Source: an archaeon (GTDB taxonomy: Archaea; Nanobdellota; Nanobdellia; SCGC-AAA011-G17; GW2011-AR17). From it: a stretch of 64,000 nucleotides of DNA. The stretch is taken from contig JABHLH010000002.1 in the NCBI GenBank assembly GCA_018692925.1, forward strand, positions 38,576-102,575, given 5' to 3'. The translations under genes and the position numbers were made by a program. The notes beneath the pieces were generated by a model. It was given only the letters and a program-made list of their open reading frames with translations. It was not told the DNA's origin and did no database searches. Below are positions 2,930 to 34,621 of the stretch, piece by piece. Numbering within the stretch: position 1 is the first letter of the stretch; every line of letters starts with the position of its first letter.

Positions 2930-4326
2930 TATAAACTCTTAAAGAATTTCCCAATCTTATTTGGCCATAACTTAATTCTACTCGGTCTAAAAATTAGTAT
3001 AATTCTGAATGGTAATTTTATCAATTCAATTAAGCCTGATTTTACTGCAACATCAAATTTATTTTCTATTCTCCAAGATTTGAAACCAAAGTAGATGAAC
3101 AATACAATTAACAGATAACAAATATATTTTATTGTACTTTTAGTTCCATTTGAATCTAACTCATATTTAGAAACTTCTGCACTTGTATACACAGGTAAAT
3201 TAACACTAAATTCTTCTTCATATTCTTCATTATAAGAATCCTTGTAAGTAACTTTAAATTTTATTTCTGTATCATCTTCTGCATTAACAAAAATATCATA
3301 GCTTGAAGTTTCAAAATCATCACTATCTAAATTTCCTAAGTATTCTTTGTTTGCACCAATAACAACATAACTATCATCTTCTAATAATTCTATATTCATA
3401 AATTTTAATTCTGTAGGTCCTACATTACTAACAGAAACAACAATTTCTCCTTTTCCACCTTCTTGGAAAGTATCAAAATTTTCTAAATTAAATGACAAAT
3501 CTGCTTCAGCACCAATCATAATTCCAAATGTATCTTGTTTAATAAATTCTGTACCATTAGAATTTTGGTAACTAATATTCATAGGGATTTTATAAACACC
3601 TGCTTCTGCATCTTCTTCAACAATAATCTCAAAATTAAAAGTATAATCTTCTCCTGCTCCTAATAAACTTAAACTTTTTTCTTTACTTGATTTGTAAGGA
3701 ACTATTGGCACATCAATTGAATCAATTGCTAAAACAAGATCAATATTTTTAAATGCACTTGTAGCTCCATTAATTATTGTAATATCTAGATCTGCAATTT
3801 TACCCGGAACTAATGTCTCAGGTTCACTAACAATACTATCTACATTTAGTGTAGCTTCAATTTCTTGTACATTAATATCTAAATAAGGAGTATAAACTCC
3901 ATTAGGATCATCTTCACTTGTATAAGTAAATCTTAATTCATTATCTCCTGCTGGCGCATCATCTGCAACTCTAACAACAAACTTTTTTATTACTTGTTCA
4001 CCTGGACCTAAATCTCCAACATCCCAAACAGCATCTTCTCCTTCTTTTAATTCAAATGGATAAGCTTCTAAAAATTCTAGCTCTATATTATTAACATCAT
4101 CTTGACCGACAATAGAAGTTGAACTTGACTCTTCAGTTTCAACAGCCATCCACAAATCAAAATATTCTCCTGGTGCAACTGGTGCTGGTGTATATTTTAA
4201 TGTAATTAATTGAACATCAATTATATTTTGTTTACTTGTATCAATCGTAACCGAACTGGTACCTGCATTCACAATACTCATTGTTAACAATATGACCAAA
4301 AATATTAATATTATTCCTCTTTTCAT
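2929..4326 (-). CDS. Large secreted protein with C-terminal membrane anchor, cotranscribed with the ABC exporter
   Basis: 465 aa with an N-terminal signal peptide (ILIFLVILLTMSIVNAGTSS), an acidic beta-rich body and a C-terminal TM (YICYLLIVLFIYFGF). Shares start/stop overlaps with its neighbours. Confidence 0.55.
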   Translation of the reverse strand: MKRGIILIFLVILLTMSIVNAGTSSVTIDTSKQNIIDVQLITLKYTPAPVAPGEYFDLWMAVETEESSSTSIVGQDDVNNIELEFLEAYPFELKEGEDAVWDVGDLGPGEQVIKKFVVRVADDAPAGDNELRFTYTSEDDPNGVYTPYLDINVQEIEATLNVDSIVSEPETLVPGKIADLDITIINGATSAFKNIDLVLAIDSIDVPIVPYKSSKEKSLSLLGAGEDYTFNFEIIVEEDAEAGVYKIPMNISYQNSNGTEFIKQDTFGIMIGAEADLSFNLENFDTFQEGGKGEIVVSVSNVGPTELKFMNIELLEDDSYVVIGANKEYLGNLDSDDFETSSYDIFVNAEDDTEIKFKVTYKDSYNEEYEEEFSVNLPVYTSAEVSKYELDSNGTKSTIKYICYLLIVLFIYFGFKSWRIENKFDVAVKSGLIELIKLPFRIILIFRPSRIKLWPNKIGKFFKSL

Positions 4327-10905: not shown

Positions 10906-10989
10906 GCGCGAGTGCCGGAGTGGTCAAACGGGCTGGACTCAAAATCCAGTGGCTTAGTGCCTACGCAGGTTCGAAACCTGTCTCGTGCA
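10906..10989 (+). tRNA. tRNA-Leu (anticodon CAA), class II with long variable arm
   Basis: Acceptor GCGCGAG/CTCGTGC, anticodon stem CTGGA/TCCAG with loop CTCAAAA, long variable arm, T-arm GCAGG-TTCGAAA-CCTGT, discriminator A. CCA not encoded. Confidence 0.85.
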
Positions 10990-10998
10990 CTTTATTTT

Positions 10999-15418: not shown

Positions 15419-16027
15419 ATGCAAAAAGCAATAGCTCTATTATCTGGTGGAATTGATTCTCCAGTAGCAATTTACAGAATGCAAGAACACTTTGACATAG
15501 TCGCTGTTCACTTTCACCAACTTCCTTTAACTGGTGAACATGAAATTGAAAAGGTAAAAGAATTAGCAAAAAAACTTAATGTGAAAAAATTATATTTAAT
15601 TCCTTTTGTTGATGTTTTCAAAGAACTTGTAGAAAAATGTAATCCTAGAGACTATTTTATTCTTTCAAAAATTGCAATGTTTAAAGCAGCTGAATTTATT
15701 GCAGAGAAAGAAAAAACTAACTTTCTAATCACAGGTGAAAATCTTGCACAAGTTTCTTCACAAACCTTATCTAATTTAAAATCTATAGAATCTCAATTAA
15801 AATTAAAAATATTAAGACCTTTACTAACTTTTGACAAACAAGAAATAATTAACATAGCAAGAGAAATTGAAACTTACGAAATTTCAAAAGGTCCAGAGAT
15901 TTGTTCTTTATTGGGTCCAAAAAATCCTTCAACAAAATCTTCAGTTTTCAAAATAAATCTTGAACTTCAAAAAATAGATTTGAATAAAATAATTCAAGAA
16001 AAAATAAAAGAAGCTAGTATCCTCTAA
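15419..16027 (+). CDS. thiI: Stand-alone PP-loop ATP pyrophosphatase domain of tRNA sulfurtransferase ThiI
   Basis: Exact PP-loop LLSGGIDSPVA. About 200 aa, matching the ThiI C-terminal domain. No THUMP domain in this ORF. Confidence 0.7.
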   Translation: MQKAIALLSGGIDSPVAIYRMQEHFDIVAVHFHQLPLTGEHEIEKVKELAKKLNVKKLYLIPFVDVFKELVEKCNPRDYFILSKIAMFKAAEFIAEKEKTNFLITGENLAQVSSQTLSNLKSIESQLKLKILRPLLTFDKQEIINIAREIETYEISKGPEICSLLGPKNPSTKSSVFKINLELQKIDLNKIIQEKIKEASIL

Positions 16028-16709
16028 TGTCAACTTCTTCAAAGGCTTCAGAACATATTATTTTAAAATTTTCCATTTCTTCTTTTGTATAAATTACTTC
16101 ACTTTTCAAATCTTCGTTAATAATTAAATTTCTTTTATCAAACTGTTGTAAAACGTATCTTTTACTTCCTTTCAACCAAGAACAAATCTTTTTGATATCT
16201 TCTTCTGTGGTTAAACTTCTAACTAATGTTGTTCTGAACTCATAATCCTTACCAGAATTTTTTATTAATTCTACACTTCTTTTTATTTTTTCTAAATCTA
16301 CTTTTACACCACAATTTCTCTCATAACTTTCTAAAGAACTTTTTATATCCATTGCAATAAAATCAACATATGGGATTAACTCTTCTAAAACTTCTGGTCT
16401 TGTTCCATTACTATCTAACTTTACTAAAAAACCTTTATCTTTTACTTTTTTTACAAACTCTAAAAGTCCTTCACTTAATGTTGGTTCTCCACCTGTAATT
16501 GTAATTGCATCTAATTTACCTTTTCTATCGTCTAAAAAACTTAAAATTAATTCTTCACTAATATCTTCTCCTTTTTCAGAAAATAGGCTTAACTCTGGAT
16601 TATGACAAAAGGGACATCTAAAATTACATTTAGGAAGAAAAAGAACGGCCGTAATCTGGCCAGGGTAGTCAATTAAAGAACTCCTAAGAATTCCTTTAAA
16701 ATTCAACAT
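16014..16709 (-). CDS. nrdG: Anaerobic ribonucleotide reductase activating protein (radical SAM)
   Basis: CNFRCPFCHN radical-SAM cluster motif. Lies immediately downstream of nrdD. Confidence 0.85.
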   Translation of the reverse strand: MLNFKGILRSSLIDYPGQITAVLFLPKCNFRCPFCHNPELSLFSEKGEDISEELILSFLDDRKGKLDAITITGGEPTLSEGLLEFVKKVKDKGFLVKLDSNGTRPEVLEELIPYVDFIAMDIKSSLESYERNCGVKVDLEKIKRSVELIKNSGKDYEFRTTLVRSLTTEEDIKKICSWLKGSKRYVLQQFDKRNLIINEDLKSEVIYTKEEMENFKIICSEAFEEVDIRGY

Positions 16710-16920
16710 TTTTTACAACTTCCAAAATCTCTTCTTCAGAGACTTTCTCTTTATTGAAAGCCTCTAAAGTTCTTCCGTATTTACTTTCTAAACTAGACTT
16801 CATACAAAAAGTTTTTCTATCAAAAAACTCAGCCTTTTTTCCTTTATTCCATTGTGTCACAGGTCTATGATATCCTACAACTCTACTATATACTTCACAT
16901 TGTTTTCCACATTTACTCAT
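16696..16920 (-). CDS. NrdD C-terminal glycyl-radical domain as a separate small ORF
   Basis: MSKCGKQCEVYSRVVGYHRPVTQWNKGKK carries the RVxGY glycyl-radical motif. The ATG at 16920 is preceded by the Shine-Dalgarno sequence AAAGGAGGTGA. Overlaps the nrdD stop by 8 nt. Confidence 0.65.
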   Translation of the reverse strand: MSKCGKQCEVYSRVVGYHRPVTQWNKGKKAEFFDRKTFCMKSSLESKYGRTLEAFNKEKVSEEEILEVVKNVEF

Positions 16921-18892
16921 TCTGCTCACCTCCTTTTGTGCTGACTACAGCTTCATATGGGCACTCATGATGTTCTCCTGCAATGTATCCATGCTCTGGA
17001 CAAATACTAAATGTTGGAGTTATTGTATAGTATGGTATTCTATATGTGTGTGCAATTCTTTTTACTAATTTTTTACACGCTTCAATACTATCTATTTTTT
17101 CTCCAATAAAACAGTGGAACACAGTTCCTCCTGTATACTTACATTGCAATTCTTCTTGGCTATCTAAAGCTTCAAAAATATCATCTGTTGCATTCACTGG
17201 TAACTGTGAACTATTTGTATAATATGGTTCTTCTGTTCCAGCTGTAATTATATTTGGATATTTCATCTTATCAATTCTTGCCAATCTATAACTAGTTCCT
17301 TCTCCAGGTGTAGCTTCTAAATTATAGATGTGTCCTGAATCTTCTTGGTATTGTTTTAATCTTGATCTCATAAAATCTAAAATCTCAATTGCAAAATCTC
17401 TTCCTTCATCATCAAGCATATCTTTCTTCAAGAAATTCAAACAACATTCATTCATTCCAATTAATCCAATTGTTGAAAAATGATGGTCTAAATTTTCTAG
17501 ATATCTTTTTGTGTAAGGCAACAATCCATATTCCATATATCTTGTAACAACCTTTCTTTTAATTTCTAAAGAATTTTGAGCCATATCCATTAAGATTTTT
17601 AATCTTCTAAAGAATTCGTCTCTATCTTTACTAACAAATCCTAATCTTGGTAGATTAATTGTAGCAACTCCAATAGAACCTGTATTTTCTCCAGAACCAA
17701 ACAATCCTCCAGTTTTACTTCTAAGTTCTCTTACATCAAGTTGTAATCTACAACACATACTTCTAACATCTGTTGGTTTCAACTCACTGTTAACAAAATT
17801 TTGGAAATAAGGGATACCATATTTTGAAGTCATTTCAAATAATATATTTGCATTATCACTATCCCAATCAAAATCTTTTGTAATGTTATAAGTTGGTATA
17901 GGGAAAGTAAATATTCTTCCATCAGCGTCTCCTTCCATCATACATTCCATGAAAGCTTTATTGATCATATCCATTTCCTTTTGATAATCTTTATACTTGT
18001 TTTCTTGTCTCTTTCCACCAATGATTACTTTTTCTTCTGCCAAATCTTCAGGTACTGTCCAATCAAATGTAAAATTTATGAAAGGTGTTTGTGTTCCCCA
18101 TCTGCTTGGTGTAGCAATATTAAATAGTAATCTTTGCATTTGTTGTTTAACTTCTTTGTAAGTCATATTATCTACTCTTACATATGGAGCTAGATAAGTA
18201 TCTACAGAGGACAAAGCTTGAGCTCCTGCCCATTCATTTTGCATTGTTCCTAAGAAATTAACCATTTGTCCAATTACAGTATCAAAATGCTTTGGTTGTT
18301 TTGTTTGTAACTTTCCATAAACTCCACCAAAACCTTCTTCTAACAATTGTCTAAGTGACCAACCTGCACAGTAACCTGAGAACATACTCAAATCATGTAA
18401 GTGGAAATCCCCATTTGAATGTGCATTTTTAATTTCTGCAGGATAAATATTATTCAACCAATAATTAGCAGTAATTTTTCCAGAGATGTACAAAATCAAA
18501 CCTCCAAGAGAAAATCCTACATTACTATTTTCATTTACTCTCCAATCAATTTGATCAAGGTATTCTTTCATTGTACCTTCAACATCTAATAATACTTTTT
18601 TACTCTCTCTTTCTCTCCTTCTATTCTCTCTATAAATGATAAAAGATTTTGCTGCTGCATGATCATTGTCTTTTATTAGAACTTCTTCTATTGAATCTTG
18701 AATTTCTTCTACTGAAGGAATTTGATAAGGATTTTTTTCTTCAACCATTCTAGCAACTTTTTGTGCTAGTTCTTGTGCTTTATCTTTACTACCAATTCCA
18801 GTTGCTTTCATTGCACTGAATATTGCTTCTGCTATTCTCTCTTTATTGAAAAGAATAATACTTCCATCTCTTTTTTTTACATGTGTTACCAT
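16913..18892 (-). CDS. nrdD: Anaerobic ribonucleoside-triphosphate reductase (class III) catalytic polypeptide, lacking the glycyl-radical motif
   Basis: 659 aa with an N-terminal ATP-cone and the class III core. Ends ...CPEHGYIAGEHHECPYEAVVSTKGGEQNE before the RVxGY motif. Confidence 0.9.
   Translation of the reverse strand: MVTHVKKRDGSIILFNKERIAEAIFSAMKATGIGSKDKAQELAQKVARMVEEKNPYQIPSVEEIQDSIEEVLIKDNDHAAAKSFIIYRENRRRERESKKVLLDVEGTMKEYLDQIDWRVNENSNVGFSLGGLILYISGKITANYWLNNIYPAEIKNAHSNGDFHLHDLSMFSGYCAGWSLRQLLEEGFGGVYGKLQTKQPKHFDTVIGQMVNFLGTMQNEWAGAQALSSVDTYLAPYVRVDNMTYKEVKQQMQRLLFNIATPSRWGTQTPFINFTFDWTVPEDLAEEKVIIGGKRQENKYKDYQKEMDMINKAFMECMMEGDADGRIFTFPIPTYNITKDFDWDSDNANILFEMTSKYGIPYFQNFVNSELKPTDVRSMCCRLQLDVRELRSKTGGLFGSGENTGSIGVATINLPRLGFVSKDRDEFFRRLKILMDMAQNSLEIKRKVVTRYMEYGLLPYTKRYLENLDHHFSTIGLIGMNECCLNFLKKDMLDDEGRDFAIEILDFMRSRLKQYQEDSGHIYNLEATPGEGTSYRLARIDKMKYPNIITAGTEEPYYTNSSQLPVNATDDIFEALDSQEELQCKYTGGTVFHCFIGEKIDSIEACKKLVKRIAHTYRIPYYTITPTFSICPEHGYIAGEHHECPYEAVVSTKGGEQNE
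16926..16933 (-). promoter_or_regulatory. Shine-Dalgarno sequence (GGAGGTGA) for the glycyl-radical small ORF
   Basis: Minus strand reads aaaaGGAGGTGAgcagaATG. A comparable AGAGGTGA precedes the GTG start of the class II RNR gene. Confidence 0.5.
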
Positions 18893-20218: not shown

Positions 20219-20292
20219 AGCCTCAGCCGTGATTTGAACACGGGACCTCTTGCTTACCAAGCAAGTGCTATACCGAGCTAAGCCACTGAGGC
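20219..20292 (-). tRNA. tRNA-Thr (anticodon GGU)
   Basis: Reverse complement folds as acceptor GCCTCAG/CTGAGGC, anticodon stem CTTGC/GCAAG with loop TTGGTAA, T-arm CCGTG-TTCAAAT-CACGG, discriminator U. Confidence 0.85.
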
Positions 20293-20953: not shown

Positions 20954-21005
20954 GAGTGTTAAAAAGAAAATTAACTCTTTTTAAGAGTTTTGAAAAAATA
21001 AAATA

Positions 21006-21174
21006 TGCGAGGGAAGGGATTTGAACCCTCGAACTCACTAAGAGACAGGATATCTTACGATTTGATTACATCCATATGTAATCTATCTCAAAGAGACTTT
21101 GGTCTTAAGTTTCGCAAACCTACAGTAACTTTCTGTAAGTTCCCTGCGCATTTGACCACTTTGCTACCCCCGCA
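21006..21174 (-). tRNA. Intron-containing tRNA with a roughly 95-100-nt intron; isotype unresolved, class II-like long variable arm
   Basis: 5' half GCGGGGG-TA-GCA-AAGTGGTCAAA-TGC-G-CAGGG. 3' half ...TCCTG-TCTCTTAGTGAGTTC-GAGGG-TTCAAAT-CCCTT-CCCTCGC-A. A 7-bp acceptor and a canonical T-arm are present. The intron contains a 7-bp hairpin (CTTACAG/CTGTAGG). Confidence 0.6.
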
Positions 21175-21199
21175 TTGTATTAGAATTTATTTGTTTTAT

Positions 21200-21931
21200 T
21201 TAAAAAACTTTTGTTTCATTTATAATTTGATATCTTTCTTTTAATTTTGTATTTGGTGGACAATAACCTTTTATTTTATAGATTTGCCATTTGGTAAGAT
21301 GTTTAGAACTTTTAAAACCAATTTCTTTTATGAATCTTTCAATATCTTTTTTTCTTTGAATCATTATTGAATGCACTGCATTTTTATCTTTTTTTCCTTT
21401 GTAAGAAGGTTTTTGATAAATATTATATCCTAATTCTTCAAGCATAAATCTCACTCCTTTTATTATTTTTTTGGAAGTCATTCCTAATTTTATTCTAGGA
21501 CGATTATGTTTTCTATTTTCTATTTTCACAGAATAATTTTTATTGAAATATATTGAACCATCAGTATCAAAAATACCTCTTAAAAAAAACTTCCATAATC
21601 TTTTATTTTTTAGGATACAATCAGGAATTTCATGATCTAATTTAACTCCTGATTTTATACCTAATTGCTCAAAAAAAGAAACAATTTTTTCATTAAAAAC
21701 ATATATCCCATATGTTCCATTTTTTTCATAATTTTTTGCAATAATTTCTTTTCCTAAAATGGGTTTAAAGATATTTGAATTATATATAGGTAAGACATGG
21801 TTATCATAATATTCTCTCTCTTCAGTTATATCTCCATTTATTGCATATTCCTGATATTTTGTAGTTTTACTAATACAACCATCACCTAAATGAATTCCAA
21901 TTATTTCGGCTAATTCTTCAGATATTTCCAT
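21200..21931 (-). CDS. LAGLIDADG homing endonuclease, double-motif single-chain type
   Basis: Motif 1 LAEIIGIHLGDGCIS and motif 2 WKFFLRGIFDTDGSIYF. 243 aa, free-standing, directly upstream of the intron-containing tRNA. Confidence 0.8.
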   Translation of the reverse strand: MEISEELAEIIGIHLGDGCISKTTKYQEYAINGDITEEREYYDNHVLPIYNSNIFKPILGKEIIAKNYEKNGTYGIYVFNEKIVSFFEQLGIKSGVKLDHEIPDCILKNKRLWKFFLRGIFDTDGSIYFNKNYSVKIENRKHNRPRIKLGMTSKKIIKGVRFMLEELGYNIYQKPSYKGKKDKNAVHSIMIQRKKDIERFIKEIGFKSSKHLTKWQIYKIKGYCPPNTKLKERYQIINETKVF

Positions 21932-33883: not shown

Positions 33884-34621
33884 ATGATCATAGTAAAATA
33901 TGCCGAAATTGCAATCAAAGGTAAGAATAGAGTAGATTTTGAGAGAAAGTTGAGAGAAAATATTAAAGATTGTATAAAAATAAATCGAATTCCTTTTGAA
34001 AAAGTTCGAAGAATGAGGGGAAGAATTTTAATTTACACTGATCAAGAATGTCCTCAGTTAAAAAATGTTTTCGGAATAGCTTCATTTTCATATGCTAAAA
34101 GATACTCACAAGATTTACAAACAATCAAAGAAGAAGCATTAAAACTTTACAAGAAAGGAACTTTCAAGGTGTTTGTAAAAAGATCAGATAAGGTTCTAAA
34201 AAATTCTATGGAACTAGCTGCAGAGATTGGCGCATATATTGTAGAGAAAACAAATGCTCCTGTTGATGTAAAAAATCCAGAAACAAAAATTAATGTTGAA
34301 TTATTTAATCACTTTGCTTATTTATACACTGAAACTAATCAAGGTCCTGGTGGTTTACCAATTGGTTCAGATTCGAATGTTATCTTATTACTTCAAAACA
34401 AAGATTCTATTGAAGCTGGATTAAGAATTTTAAAGAGAGGTTGTTCTTTAGATGTTTACAAAGAAAAAGATATTGACTATTCTAAATTAAAAGAATACGA
34501 ATATGGTTTTAGAATTAAAGAATTGGAAGAGATGCCTGAAGAACCAGAAGCTGTAATTGTATCAGATAAAGTAGATTCAATAAAAGATTATCCTTACTTT
34601 GTTTTAAGACCTTTAATATAA
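33884..34621 (+). CDS. ThiI-like THUMP-domain protein with a degenerate, truncated PP-loop
   Basis: N-terminus MIIVKYAEIAIKGKNRVDFERKL matches the ThiI ferredoxin-like and THUMP region. GGLPIGSDSNVILLLQNKDSIEAG sits where SGGIDS would be. Confidence 0.65.
   Translation: MIIVKYAEIAIKGKNRVDFERKLRENIKDCIKINRIPFEKVRRMRGRILIYTDQECPQLKNVFGIASFSYAKRYSQDLQTIKEEALKLYKKGTFKVFVKRSDKVLKNSMELAAEIGAYIVEKTNAPVDVKNPETKINVELFNHFAYLYTETNQGPGGLPIGSDSNVILLLQNKDSIEAGLRILKRGCSLDVYKEKDIDYSKLKEYEYGFRIKELEEMPEEPEAVIVSDKVDSIKDYPYFVLRPLI

What the first reader, a model, noticed from the sequence alone, without database searches (positions are those of the whole stretch)
21006..21174. tRNA with about 100-nt intron whose anticodon cannot be placed canonically (possible non-canonical intron position)
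The acceptor stem (GCGGGGG/CCCTCGC), D-arm (GCA-AAGTGGTCAAA-TGC), T-arm (GAGGG-TTCAAAT-CCCTT) and a class II-like variable arm (TCTC-TTAGT-GAG-TTC) are clear. With anticodon stem CAGGG/TCCTG, however, no combination of exon ends yields a loop with U33 if the intron sits at the canonical 37/38 position. This implies a non-canonical bulge-helix-bulge intron position, or more than one intron, as described in some archaeal lineages. The intron itself forms a 7-bp hairpin.
Basis: seen in the sequence. Interest (0 to 1): 0.55.

Follow-up and report, generated by a model that had tools for sequence, protein, structure and literature searches.

The report
Two-intron archaeal leucine tRNA gene
The odd tRNA is a leucine tRNA gene of a tiny marine DPANN archaeon, interrupted by two short protein-spliced introns that leave the anticodon on a 7-base mini-exon; this gene type is known but standard tRNA finders miss it.

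Summary
A tRNA gene lies on the minus strand at 21173..21006. Default ARAGORN and Rfam do not call it, and no single-intron model gives a normal anticodon loop.

It resolves as tRNA-Leu(UAA) with two bulge-helix-bulge introns:
- A 32-nt intron at the non-canonical position 30/31.
- Between them, a 7-nt micro-exon, ACTTAAG (positions 31-37).

Evidence:
- Splicing gives an 84-nt cloverleaf with stem CAGGA/TCCTG, loop CUUAAGA, a long variable arm and A73.
- Its first 45 nt are identical to intronless tRNA-Leu(UAA) genes of five other DPANN species.
- An equally good solution arises in 1 of 20,000 shuffles.
- The intron helix next to the 30/31 splice site covaries across seven species.

Position 30/31 and multi-intron tRNA genes are already described in Archaea, so this is a new member of a known kind.

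By-products:
- Close relatives carry three or four introns in the same gene; the papers read give three as the maximum.
- A conserved LAGLIDADG endonuclease gene sits directly upstream of this tRNA in eight of nine lineages checked.

No RNA evidence is available, and the splicing endonuclease type was not determined.

The parts
21006..21173 (-). Whole tRNA-Leu(UAA) gene, 168 nt, from G1 at 21173 to discriminator A73 at 21006. No CCA is encoded.
   Evidence: Sequence read. The spliced product is called tRNA-Leu(taa) by default ARAGORN, and its minimum-energy fold is the cloverleaf.
21143..21173 (-). Exon 1, 31 nt, tRNA positions 1-30: acceptor 5' strand, D arm, G26 and C27-G30 of the anticodon stem.
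   Evidence: Identical to the first 31 nt of intronless orthologs L063, L050, L026, L070 and L036.
21111..21142 (-). Intron 1, 32 nt, at non-canonical position 30/31: G + 9-bp hairpin AACTTACAG/CTGTAGGTT (loop AAAGTTA) + TGCG + AA. TGCG pairs with exon C25-A28 (CGCA) to form the 4-bp central helix. The 3-nt bulges are GG|G and AA|A.
   Evidence: Motif scan and dissection. Enforcing this fold costs only 0.7 kcal/mol relative to the minimum-energy fold of the precursor. The helix covaries in 7 species: 90.5% of cells paired, 0 of 500 shuffles as good.
21104..21110 (-). Micro-exon ACTTAAG, 7 nt, tRNA positions 31-37: A31, C32, U33, anticodon UAA, G37.
   Evidence: The same 7-mer lies contiguous with both flanking exons in intronless orthologs. 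The same micro-exon between two introns is seen in L046, L072, L074, L076 and L077.
21052..21103 (-). Intron 2, 52 nt, at canonical position 37/38. It begins with A, contains two internal hairpins (GTCTC/GAGAT and GATTACAT/ATGTAATC), and ends TAAG + AT. TAAG pairs with C32-A35 (CTTA). The bulges are AG|A and AT|A.
   Evidence: After removal of intron 1, ARAGORN calls Leu(taa) with a 52-nt intron. The canonical fold lies within 2 kcal/mol of the minimum only once intron 1 is gone. The two-hairpin layout is conserved with compensatory changes in L076 and L077.
21006..21051 (-). Exon 3, 46 nt, positions 38-73: A38, anticodon stem 3' strand TCCTG, variable arm, T arm, acceptor 3' strand and A73.
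21197..21204 (-). TATA-box-like element TTTAAATA, 24-31 nt upstream of G1, preceded by AAAAG (BRE-like). It overlaps the stop codon of the upstream LAGLIDADG ORF.
   Evidence: Read from the sequence. A similar AAAAGnTTTATAA element lies upstream of the orthologous tRNA in L072, L074, L076, L077 and L078. Weak evidence on its own in a genome of 29% G+C.
20992..21005 (-). T-rich tract TATTTTATTTTTTC immediately after A73, a likely archaeal transcription stop.
   Evidence: Read from the sequence; inference only.
21200..21931 (-). Free-standing LAGLIDADG endonuclease-like gene, 243 aa with two motifs. It ends 26 nt upstream of the tRNA on the same strand. It is a neighbour and has not been shown to be part of the tRNA system.
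   Evidence: Pfam LAGLIDADG_3, E = 4.9e-13. Homologs lie directly upstream of tRNA-Leu(UAA) in L062, L072, L074, L075, L076, L077 and L078, but not in L079. Both motif aspartates (D17 in GDG, D124 in DTDG) are invariant in 17 homologs.

Best explanation
This is a functional gene for tRNA-Leu(UAA) of a marine DPANN archaeon, interrupted by two protein-spliced (bulge-helix-bulge) introns.

Proposed mechanism:
1. The gene is transcribed from a BRE/TATA promoter that overlaps the stop codon of the upstream gene.
2. In the primary transcript, the 3' end of intron 1 (UGCG) pairs with exon bases C25-A28. A 9-bp intron hairpin stacks on this helix. This presents the 5' splice site (G30|G) in a 3-nt bulge and the 3' splice site (AA|A31) just after the 4-bp helix, an HBh'-type motif.
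3. The archaeal splicing endonuclease cuts both sites and an RtcB-type ligase joins G30 to A31.
4. Only then can the anticodon stem CAGGA/UCCUG form. It completes a canonical substrate for the 37/38 intron: C32-A35 pair with UAAG of the intron, with bulges AG|A and AU|A.
5. This intron is then removed.

Because the exon between the introns is only 7 nt, splicing has to be stepwise (cut and ligate one intron, then the other). Otherwise the micro-exon would be released. The product is an 84-nt class II tRNA that reads UUA/UUG.

What is shown: the exon/intron structure, the motif geometry, and their conservation and covariation across species. What is inferred: the enzymes, the order of the two splicing events, and expression.
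For: - The spliced 84-mer is called tRNA-Leu(taa) by default ARAGORN, and its minimum-energy fold is the cloverleaf. Removing either intron alone lets ARAGORN find the other.
- The first 45 nt of the spliced product, which span both junctions, are identical to intronless tRNA-Leu(UAA) genes of five other DPANN species. Overall identity to these is 88-91%.
- The anticodon assigned this way agrees with independent Leu identity marks: a long variable arm and A73.
- The solution is unique in the real sequence and occurs in 1 of 20,000 shuffles.
- The same layout (30/31 plus 37/38, micro-exon ACTTAAG) occurs in L046, L072, L074, L076 and L077. Their intron sequences differ.
- In 7 species, the 5 helix pairs next to the 30/31 splice site all show compensatory changes. 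90.5% of cells are paired against 21-48% when the register is slid, and 0 of 500 shuffles do as well.
- The intron-1 motif costs 0.7 kcal/mol relative to the minimum-energy fold of the precursor. The canonical motif for intron 2 lies within 2 kcal/mol only after intron 1 is removed, against 7.7 kcal/mol before.
- The gene is identical in six independent assemblies of the population.
- The host is archaeal: ABCE1/RLI, exosome, Pop5, proteasome alpha.
- Literature: 30/31 is a listed non-canonical position, and canonical plus non-canonical introns co-occur in one gene (PMC4090602). Closely spaced introns can require sequential removal (PMC8450103). Non-canonical introns are removed before the 37/38 intron in C. 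merolae (PMC3728597). DPANN lineages have alpha4 endonucleases with an extra L3 loop, many disrupted tRNA genes, and incomplete predicted tRNA sets (PMC5829648).
Against: - There are no RNA data, so neither expression nor the junctions are demonstrated.
- Both motifs are relaxed. Intron 1 lacks a convincing outer helix (HBh' only). Intron 2 has only a 1-bp inner helix (hBH/bulge-helix-loop type).
- The central helix of intron 1 uses C25, which is also needed for the D stem, and C27/A28, which are needed for the anticodon stem. An alternative precursor fold is therefore required.
- The endonuclease was not found among the 43 window ORFs scanned, so its type and substrate range are unknown for this genome.
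- In vitro work on M. kandleri suggests the canonical intron goes first (PMC5829648). That is the opposite of the order proposed here.
Confidence: 0.9

Rival explanations
1. The exon structure is the same, but the canonical 37/38 intron is removed first and the 30/31 intron second.
For: In vitro time courses with M. kandleri pre-tRNA-Glu indicate that the canonical intron is removed before the non-canonical one (PMC5829648, read). The CTTA/TAAG helix and its two bulges can form in the full precursor ('H2 only', -47.7 kcal/mol).
Against: That fold lies 7.7 kcal/mol above the minimum, whereas the intron-1 motif lies 0.7 kcal/mol above it. Without A31 joined to G30, the outer helix of the canonical motif is interrupted. 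In C. merolae the non-canonical introns go first (PMC3728597). tRNAscan-SE authors describe cases where one intron must go before the second motif forms (PMC8450103).
Confidence: 0.3
2. A decaying or disrupted tRNA pseudogene: a former tRNA-Leu broken by insertions and no longer made into functional tRNA.
For: Standard tRNA finders do not call it. There are no RNA data. Whether the genome has another tRNA-Leu(UAA) could not be checked.
Against: All exon bases are intact. The first 45 nt of the spliced product are identical to intronless orthologs. Both inserts end exactly at motif-compatible sites. The layout is conserved in at least five other species, with compensatory changes in intron helices. 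Promoter-like and terminator-like elements are present. No other tRNA-Leu(UAA) lies in the 64-kb window.
Confidence: 0.04
3. A single-intron gene as ARAGORN models it: tRNA-Gly(UCC) with an 88-nt intron at the start of the anticodon loop.
For: ARAGORN -i output.
Against: The model needs A33 in place of the normally invariant U33, two bases between the D and anticodon stems, and a long variable arm that no tRNA-Gly has. It also ignores A73 and the class II architecture. It has no support from orthologs, all of which are Leu.
Confidence: 0.01
4. A self-splicing group I intron, as found in tRNA-Leu(UAA) of cyanobacteria and plastids.
For: It is the same tRNA species that hosts the classic bacterial group I intron. 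Group I introns have been reported in DPANN rRNA genes (PMC6125680, abstract seen).
Against: The inserts are 32 and 52 nt, far too short for a group I core. No Rfam intron family hit appears even at E <= 10. The insertion sites are 30/31 and 37/38, not inside the anticodon. The junctions fit the endonuclease motif instead.
Confidence: 0.005

Closest known systems
Multiple-intron tRNA genes of Crenarchaeota (Thermoproteales), e.g. Pyrobaculum tRNA-Pro(UGG) with introns at 25/26, 37/38 and 56/57 (Sugahara et al. 2007, 2008, as reviewed in PMC4090602)
   Same: One canonical 37/38 intron plus a non-canonical intron in the same gene. The splice sites lie in relaxed BHB motifs (HBh'/hBH). Position 30/31 is on the published list of non-canonical positions. 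Standard tRNA finders miss such genes.
   Different: The host is a mesophilic marine DPANN archaeon, not a thermophilic crenarchaeon. The two introns lie only 7 nt apart, so the whole anticodon loop 5' side is a micro-exon. The intron sequences are unrelated to the crenarchaeal ones used to train detection models.
Disrupted tRNA genes of DPANN archaea and their alpha4 (L3-loop), (alpha-beta)2 or epsilon2 splicing endonucleases (Fujishima et al. 2011, PMC3239211; Kaneta et al. 2018, PMC5829648)
   Same: The same superphylum. That work reports raised numbers of non-canonical and multiple introns in Pace-, Woese- and Nanohaloarchaeota. It also predicts that tRNAs missing from these genomes are hidden disrupted genes.
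   Different: This particular gene, its 30/31 plus 37/38 layout in tRNA-Leu(UAA), and its lineage-wide conservation are not described in the papers I could read. The endonuclease of this genome was not identified here.
Split tRNA-Lys(CUU) at position 30/31 in Nanoarchaeum equitans and Staphylothermus (cited in PMC4090602)
   Same: The same breakpoint (30/31) in the 5' strand of the anticodon stem, processed through a BHB-like motif.
   Different: In those cases the halves are separate genes joined in trans. Here everything is colinear on one transcript.
Multi-intron nuclear tRNA genes of the red alga Cyanidioschyzon merolae (PMC3728597)
   Same: Up to three BHB-dependent introns per gene. Ordered removal was shown experimentally, with non-canonical introns going before the 37/38 intron.
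   Different: Those are eukaryotic nuclear genes, and the intron positions differ.

Membership tests
Archaeal endonuclease-spliced (BHB) tRNA introns / multi-intron tRNA genes | Removing the proposed introns yields a canonical cloverleaf tRNA with a 7-nt anticodon loop, U33 and purine 37. | tested here: met
   default ARAGORN calls tRNA-Leu(taa). The stem is CAGGA/TCCTG, the loop is CTTAAGA, and the minimum-energy fold is the cloverleaf.
Archaeal endonuclease-spliced (BHB) tRNA introns / multi-intron tRNA genes | Each splice site lies after the second base of a 3-nt bulge that flanks a 4-bp helix (strict hBHBh' or relaxed HBh'/hBH). | tested here: met
   Intron 1: CGCA/TGCG, bulges GG|G and AA|A, 9-bp h', weak outer helix (HBh'). 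Intron 2: CTTA/TAAG, bulges AG|A and AT|A, outer helix is the anticodon stem once intron 1 is removed, 1-bp inner helix (hBH). Both motifs are relaxed rather than strict.
Archaeal endonuclease-spliced (BHB) tRNA introns / multi-intron tRNA genes | The motif is maintained in orthologs despite sequence change (covariation). | tested here: met
   across 7 species, 5 of 5 h' pairs show double changes, 90.5% of cells are paired, and 0 of 500 shuffles do as well; the hairpins of intron 2 are conserved with compensatory changes in L076 and L077.
Archaeal endonuclease-spliced (BHB) tRNA introns / multi-intron tRNA genes | The host is an archaeon that encodes a splicing endonuclease (EndA) able to cut relaxed motifs, and an RtcB ligase. 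| tested here: inconclusive
   The window is archaeal (ABCE1, exosome, Pop5, proteasome). No EndA or RtcB was found among the 43 window ORFs scanned, and the rest of the genome could not be reached. The literature assigns alpha4 plus L3 loop to related lineages (PMC5829648).
Archaeal endonuclease-spliced (BHB) tRNA introns / multi-intron tRNA genes | Spliced mature tRNA and excised (often circular) introns are detectable in RNA. | not testable with these tools
   No transcriptome data were available.
tRNA-Leu (class II) | A long variable arm, discriminator A73, and a Leu anticodon with C32/U33/G37. | tested here: met
   The product is 88-91% identical to intronless DPANN tRNA-Leu(UAA) genes. 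Which identity elements the archaeal LeuRS uses is taken from general knowledge and was not tested.
Group I intron in tRNA-Leu(UAA) | A ribozyme core of about 200 nt or more inserted within the anticodon, with an Rfam group I intron match. | tested here: not met
   The inserts are 32 and 52 nt, at positions 30/31 and 37/38. No group I hit appears at E <= 10.
Split or permuted tRNA genes | The tRNA pieces are encoded at separate loci or in permuted order. | tested here: not met
   All three exons are colinear within 168 nt.

The most novel reading that the evidence does not exclude
The catalytically intact LAGLIDADG endonuclease gene that sits 20-50 nt upstream of tRNA-Leu(UAA) may be functionally tied to that tRNA gene. 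It is found there in eight of nine lineages examined. For example, it could cut intron-free or foreign alleles and so drive DNA-level gain or spread of BHB introns. That would explain why the adjacent gene carries 0, 1, 1, 2, 2, 3, 4 and 4 introns across these lineages, which includes counts above the published maximum of three. How archaeal tRNA introns are gained is an open question.
Probability: 0.06. Interest if true: 0.8.

Novelty: new member of a known kind. Interest (0 to 1): 0.33.

Why it matters
- **Annotation.** This is probably the genome's gene for reading UUA/UUG. ARAGORN and Rfam do not see it, so the MAG would look as if it lacked an essential tRNA. Kaneta et al. 2018 suspected exactly this kind of hidden disrupted gene in DPANN genomes.
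- **Biology.** A marine DPANN clade has a conserved 30/31 plus 37/38 intron pair that leaves the anticodon on a 7-nt exon. This constrains the order of splicing. It also implies an endonuclease that accepts relaxed motifs outside the Crenarchaeota.
- **Relatives.** The three- and four-intron versions give a graded natural series (0 to 4 introns in one orthologous gene) for studying intron gain.

Tried and rejected
- Default ARAGORN and Rfam, at gathering threshold and at E <= 1 over the whole window, make no call at this locus. Rfam at E <= 10 on 400 nt finds only a partial T-arm match.
- ARAGORN -i gives tRNA-Gly(TCC) with A33. I rejected it.
- I enumerated single-intron placements by hand. 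None gives U33.
- A metagenome scan for more 30/31-intron genes returned only 2 loci. One (L072) was informative; the other (L073) is a near-duplicate of L008.
- I looked for the splicing endonuclease in the window. In all, 43 ORFs were scanned against Pfam or NCBIfam and none matched. About 30 ORFs were not scanned.
- The idea that the introns protect the gene from the neighbouring homing endonuclease is weakened. L078 has the LAGLIDADG gene next to an intronless tRNA-Leu. L046 and L008 have multi-intron genes with no LAGLIDADG homolog in the flanks held.
- A sequence search of the LAGLIDADG protein against solved structures gave nothing useful. NCBIfam shows only weak similarity to intein endonuclease domains.
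- The six other assemblies of the same population (L001-L006) carry an identical tRNA, so they give no comparative information.

Full report
**What is at the coordinates**

The feature lies on the minus strand. Read from 21173 down to 21006, it has these tRNA parts:
- A 7-bp acceptor stem, GCGGGGG/CCCTCGC, with one G-U pair.
- U8 and A9.
- A 3-bp D stem with the loop AGTGGTCAA, the same D-loop as the intronless tRNA-Leu(CAA) at 10906-10990.
- A variable arm, CTC-TTAGT-GAG.
- A T arm, GAGGG-TTCAAAT-CCCTT.
- Discriminator A73.

About 90 extra bases lie between the D arm and the variable arm.

Standard tools do not resolve the gene:
- Default ARAGORN and Rfam at gathering threshold find only the window's two other tRNAs.
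- Rfam at a relaxed threshold matches only the T-arm half (19.6 bits against a cut-off of 29).
- ARAGORN in intron mode returns tRNA-Gly(TCC). That model has an 88-nt intron, A33, and a long variable arm that no tRNA-Gly has.

The true end coordinate is 21173, not 21174.

**Resolving the gene**

I scanned all pairs of positions for the archaeal splicing motif. The motif is a 4-bp helix followed on each strand by a 3-nt bulge, which is cut after its second base. One combination restores a tRNA:
- Exon 1: 21173-21143, positions 1-30.
- Intron 1: 21142-21111, 32 nt.
- Micro-exon ACTTAAG: 21110-21104, positions 31-37.
- Intron 2: 21103-21052, 52 nt.
- Exon 3: 21051-21006, positions 38-73.

The spliced 84-mer has anticodon stem CAGGA/TCCTG (five Watson-Crick pairs) and loop C-U-UAA-G-A. 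Default ARAGORN calls it tRNA-Leu(taa), and its minimum-energy fold is the cloverleaf. Removing either intron alone lets ARAGORN detect the other. The anticodon agrees with the class II architecture and A73, which point to leucine independently.

In a dinucleotide-preserving shuffle test of the 91-nt insert, an equally good two-intron solution arose in 1 of 20,000 shuffles. It arose in none when a Leu anticodon was also required.

**Motif anatomy**

Intron 1 reads G + AACTTACAG-AAAGTTA-CTGTAGGTT + TGCG + AA.
- TGCG pairs with exon bases C25-G26-C27-A28.
- The 9-bp hairpin abuts this helix.
- The bulges are GG|G and AA|A.
- The outer helix is weak, so the motif is HBh'.

Intron 2 is at the canonical 37/38 position.
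- C32-A35 (CTTA) pair with TAAG near the intron's 3' end.
- The bulges are AG|A and AT|A.
- The outer helix is the anticodon stem.
- The inner helix is a single C-G pair, followed by two internal hairpins, so the motif is of the hBH type.

Energetics:
- Enforcing the intron-1 motif in the full precursor costs 0.7 kcal/mol (-54.7 against -55.4).
- Enforcing the intron-2 helix in the full precursor costs 7.7 kcal/mol.
- After intron 1 is removed, the full cloverleaf with the canonical motif lies within 2 kcal/mol of the minimum.

Intron 1's helix uses C27 and A28 of the anticodon stem, and A31 comes from the micro-exon. The canonical substrate for intron 2 is therefore complete only after the first ligation. 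I infer the order intron 1, then intron 2.

I also infer stepwise cut-and-ligate splicing. Cutting all four sites at once would free a 7-nt exon held by almost nothing.

The literature points both ways on order:
- tRNAscan-SE 2.0 describes close introns where one must go before the second motif forms (PMC8450103).
- C. merolae removes non-canonical introns before the 37/38 intron (PMC3728597).
- M. kandleri in vitro data suggest the canonical intron goes first (PMC5829648).

**Source and relatives**

The window is archaeal. It encodes ABCE1/RLI, the exosome subunits Rrp41, Rrp42 and Rrp4, SBDS, proteasome alpha and RNase P Pop5. Its G+C content is about 29%.

The neighbouring protein is encoded identically in GCA_018673755.1 and in several marine metagenome assemblies, including Saanich Inlet at 200 m. 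The tRNA is identical in all six of these.

A scan of one genome per species with a degenerate 5'-exon pattern gave 65 loci. All but one are titled as DPANN or unclassified archaea: Woese-, Pace-, Nanohalo-, Aenigmat- and Nanoarchaeota. L048 is titled Candidatus Paceibacteria bacterium. The breakdown is as follows:
- 34 have intronless class II Leu genes.
- 17 have a single insert at 37/38.
- 10 carry T-loop introns. These are 8 Aenigmatarchaeota loci plus L027 and L052, which also have a 37/38 intron.
- 2 have a 30/31 intron (L046 and L008).
- 2 are cut off by contig ends.

Five intronless tRNA-Leu(UAA) genes (L063, L050, L026, L070, L036) are identical to my spliced product over its first 45 nt, across both junctions. 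Overall identity to these is 88-91%. This is the strongest single piece of evidence for the exon boundaries.

**Conservation of the two-intron layout**

The same arrangement, ...GCGCAGG | intron | ACTTAAG | intron | ATCCTG..., occurs in:
- L046 (cut off by the contig end).
- L072, from the metagenome scan.
- L074, L076 and L077, reached through the neighbouring protein.

L008 and L073 have a 30/31 intron in tRNA-Leu(CAA).

The 30/31 introns all end in (T/G)G(C/T)GAA, but their hairpins have different sequences. I built a junction-anchored alignment of the seven genes. The results were:
- 90.5% of cells are paired, against 21-48% when the register is slid.
- All five hairpin pairs next to the bulge show changes on both sides.
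- 0 of 500 shuffles reach the observed values.
- The central helix is 4 bp in five species. In L046 and L008 it is 3 bp plus an A-G mismatch.

Intron 2 keeps its two-hairpin design in L076 and L077, with compensatory changes.

**Comparison with what is known**

- Position 30/31 is on the published list of non-canonical archaeal intron positions. Genes that combine canonical and non-canonical introns are well described, mainly in Thermoproteales (PMC4090602).
- Kaneta et al. 2018 report that Pace-, Woese- and Nanohaloarchaeota have alpha4 endonucleases with an extra L3 loop, together with more disrupted tRNA genes. They note that incomplete tRNA sets in DPANN point to undetected disrupted genes (PMC5829648).

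The finding is therefore a new member of a known kind. I could not determine this genome's endonuclease. None was found among the 43 window ORFs scanned.

**By-products**

1. In close relatives the orthologous gene has more introns.
   - L077 has three: 8/9, 30/31 and 37/38.
   - L074 and L076 have four: D loop, 30/31, 37/38 and T stem 51/52.
   - For L076 and L077, every intron has a 4-bp helix and 3-nt bulges, and the spliced products are called tRNA-Leu(taa).
   - For L074, the D-region and T-stem intron boundaries were located by the same motif scan, but the spliced product was not assembled or tested.
   - The papers I read give three as the maximum per archaeal tRNA gene (PMC8450103, PMC4390854). 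A text search found no report of four.

2. The ORF directly upstream (21200-21931) is a 243-aa two-motif LAGLIDADG protein.
   - It belongs to a family of about 176 DPANN proteins.
   - In eight of the nine lineages whose DNA I could read, it lies 20-50 nt upstream of tRNA-Leu(UAA) on the same strand. These are the window, L062, L072, L074, L075, L076, L077 and L078. L079 is the exception.
   - The tRNA's TATA-like element overlaps the ORF's last codons.
   - Both motif aspartates are invariant in 17 homologs.
   - The adjacent tRNA has 0 to 4 introns, including an intronless case (L078). Multi-intron genes also occur with no LAGLIDADG homolog in the flanks (L046, L008). A simple 'intron protects against the neighbour' model is therefore not supported.
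   - A functional link remains possible but unproven.

**Verdict**

The gene is an ordinary multi-intron archaeal tRNA gene, though a neat and easily missed one. The side observations have moderate extra interest.

Noticed in passing
L074 (Ga0117909_1000001) about 3770-3990; L076 (JAUYMK010000082.1) 1291-1512; L077 (CAYHUV010000014.1) about 2227-2425: The orthologous tRNA-Leu(UAA) genes of close relatives carry more introns. L077 has three (8/9, 30/31, 37/38). L074 and L076 have four (D loop, 30/31, 37/38, T stem 51/52). For L076 and L077 every intron fits the helix-plus-bulge motif and the spliced products are called tRNA-Leu by ARAGORN; the L074 product was not assembled. The papers read state a maximum of three introns per archaeal tRNA gene.
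   Followed up: partly
window 21200-21931 (-), and L062, L072, L074-L078: A free-standing two-motif LAGLIDADG endonuclease-like gene lies 20-50 nt upstream of tRNA-Leu(UAA), on the same strand, in 8 of 9 lineages checked. Its identity to the window protein falls to 48% among these lineages. Both motif aspartates are invariant in 17 homologs. The tRNA's TATA-like box overlaps its stop codon. Its function and any link to the tRNA or its introns are unknown.
   Followed up: partly
L008 (CAYPCO010000105.1) and L073 (Ga0164318_10017773): A tRNA-Leu(CAA) gene with a 30/31 intron also appears to have further introns in the variable arm and in the T loop. These splice sites were not worked out.
   Followed up: no
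L015, L031, L038, L039, L053, L059, L064, L065 (Aenigmatarchaeota); L027, L052: In these class II Leu tRNA genes the T loop is interrupted right after TTCGAA by inserts of about 60-130 nt. This looks like a lineage-wide non-canonical T-loop intron. L027 and L052 also have a 37/38 intron.
   Followed up: no
window 16696-16929 (-) and 16913-18892 (-): The anaerobic ribonucleotide reductase NrdD is encoded as a 659-aa ORF followed by an overlapping ORF of about 74-77 aa that also matches the NRDD family. The same split appears in independent assemblies (L001-L003). It may be a split gene or a frameshift.
   Followed up: no
window 15419-16027 (+) and 33884-34621 (+): The tRNA 4-thiouridine enzyme ThiI appears to be split into two genes 18 kb apart. 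One has only the PP-loop domain; the other has the ferredoxin-like and THUMP domains.
   Followed up: no
window 20958-20996 (+): There is a sub-threshold Rfam match to CRISPR-DR63 (21.7 bits against a cut-off of 37). It is just a 7-bp inverted repeat (AACTCTT/AAGAGTT) in the A/T-rich spacer downstream of the tRNA. No repeat array is present. It may be part of a terminator.
   Followed up: partly
window 10906-10990 (+) and 20219-20292 (-): The window's other two tRNA genes, Leu(CAA) and Thr(GGT), are intronless. Intron load is therefore gene-specific in this genome region.
   Followed up: yes
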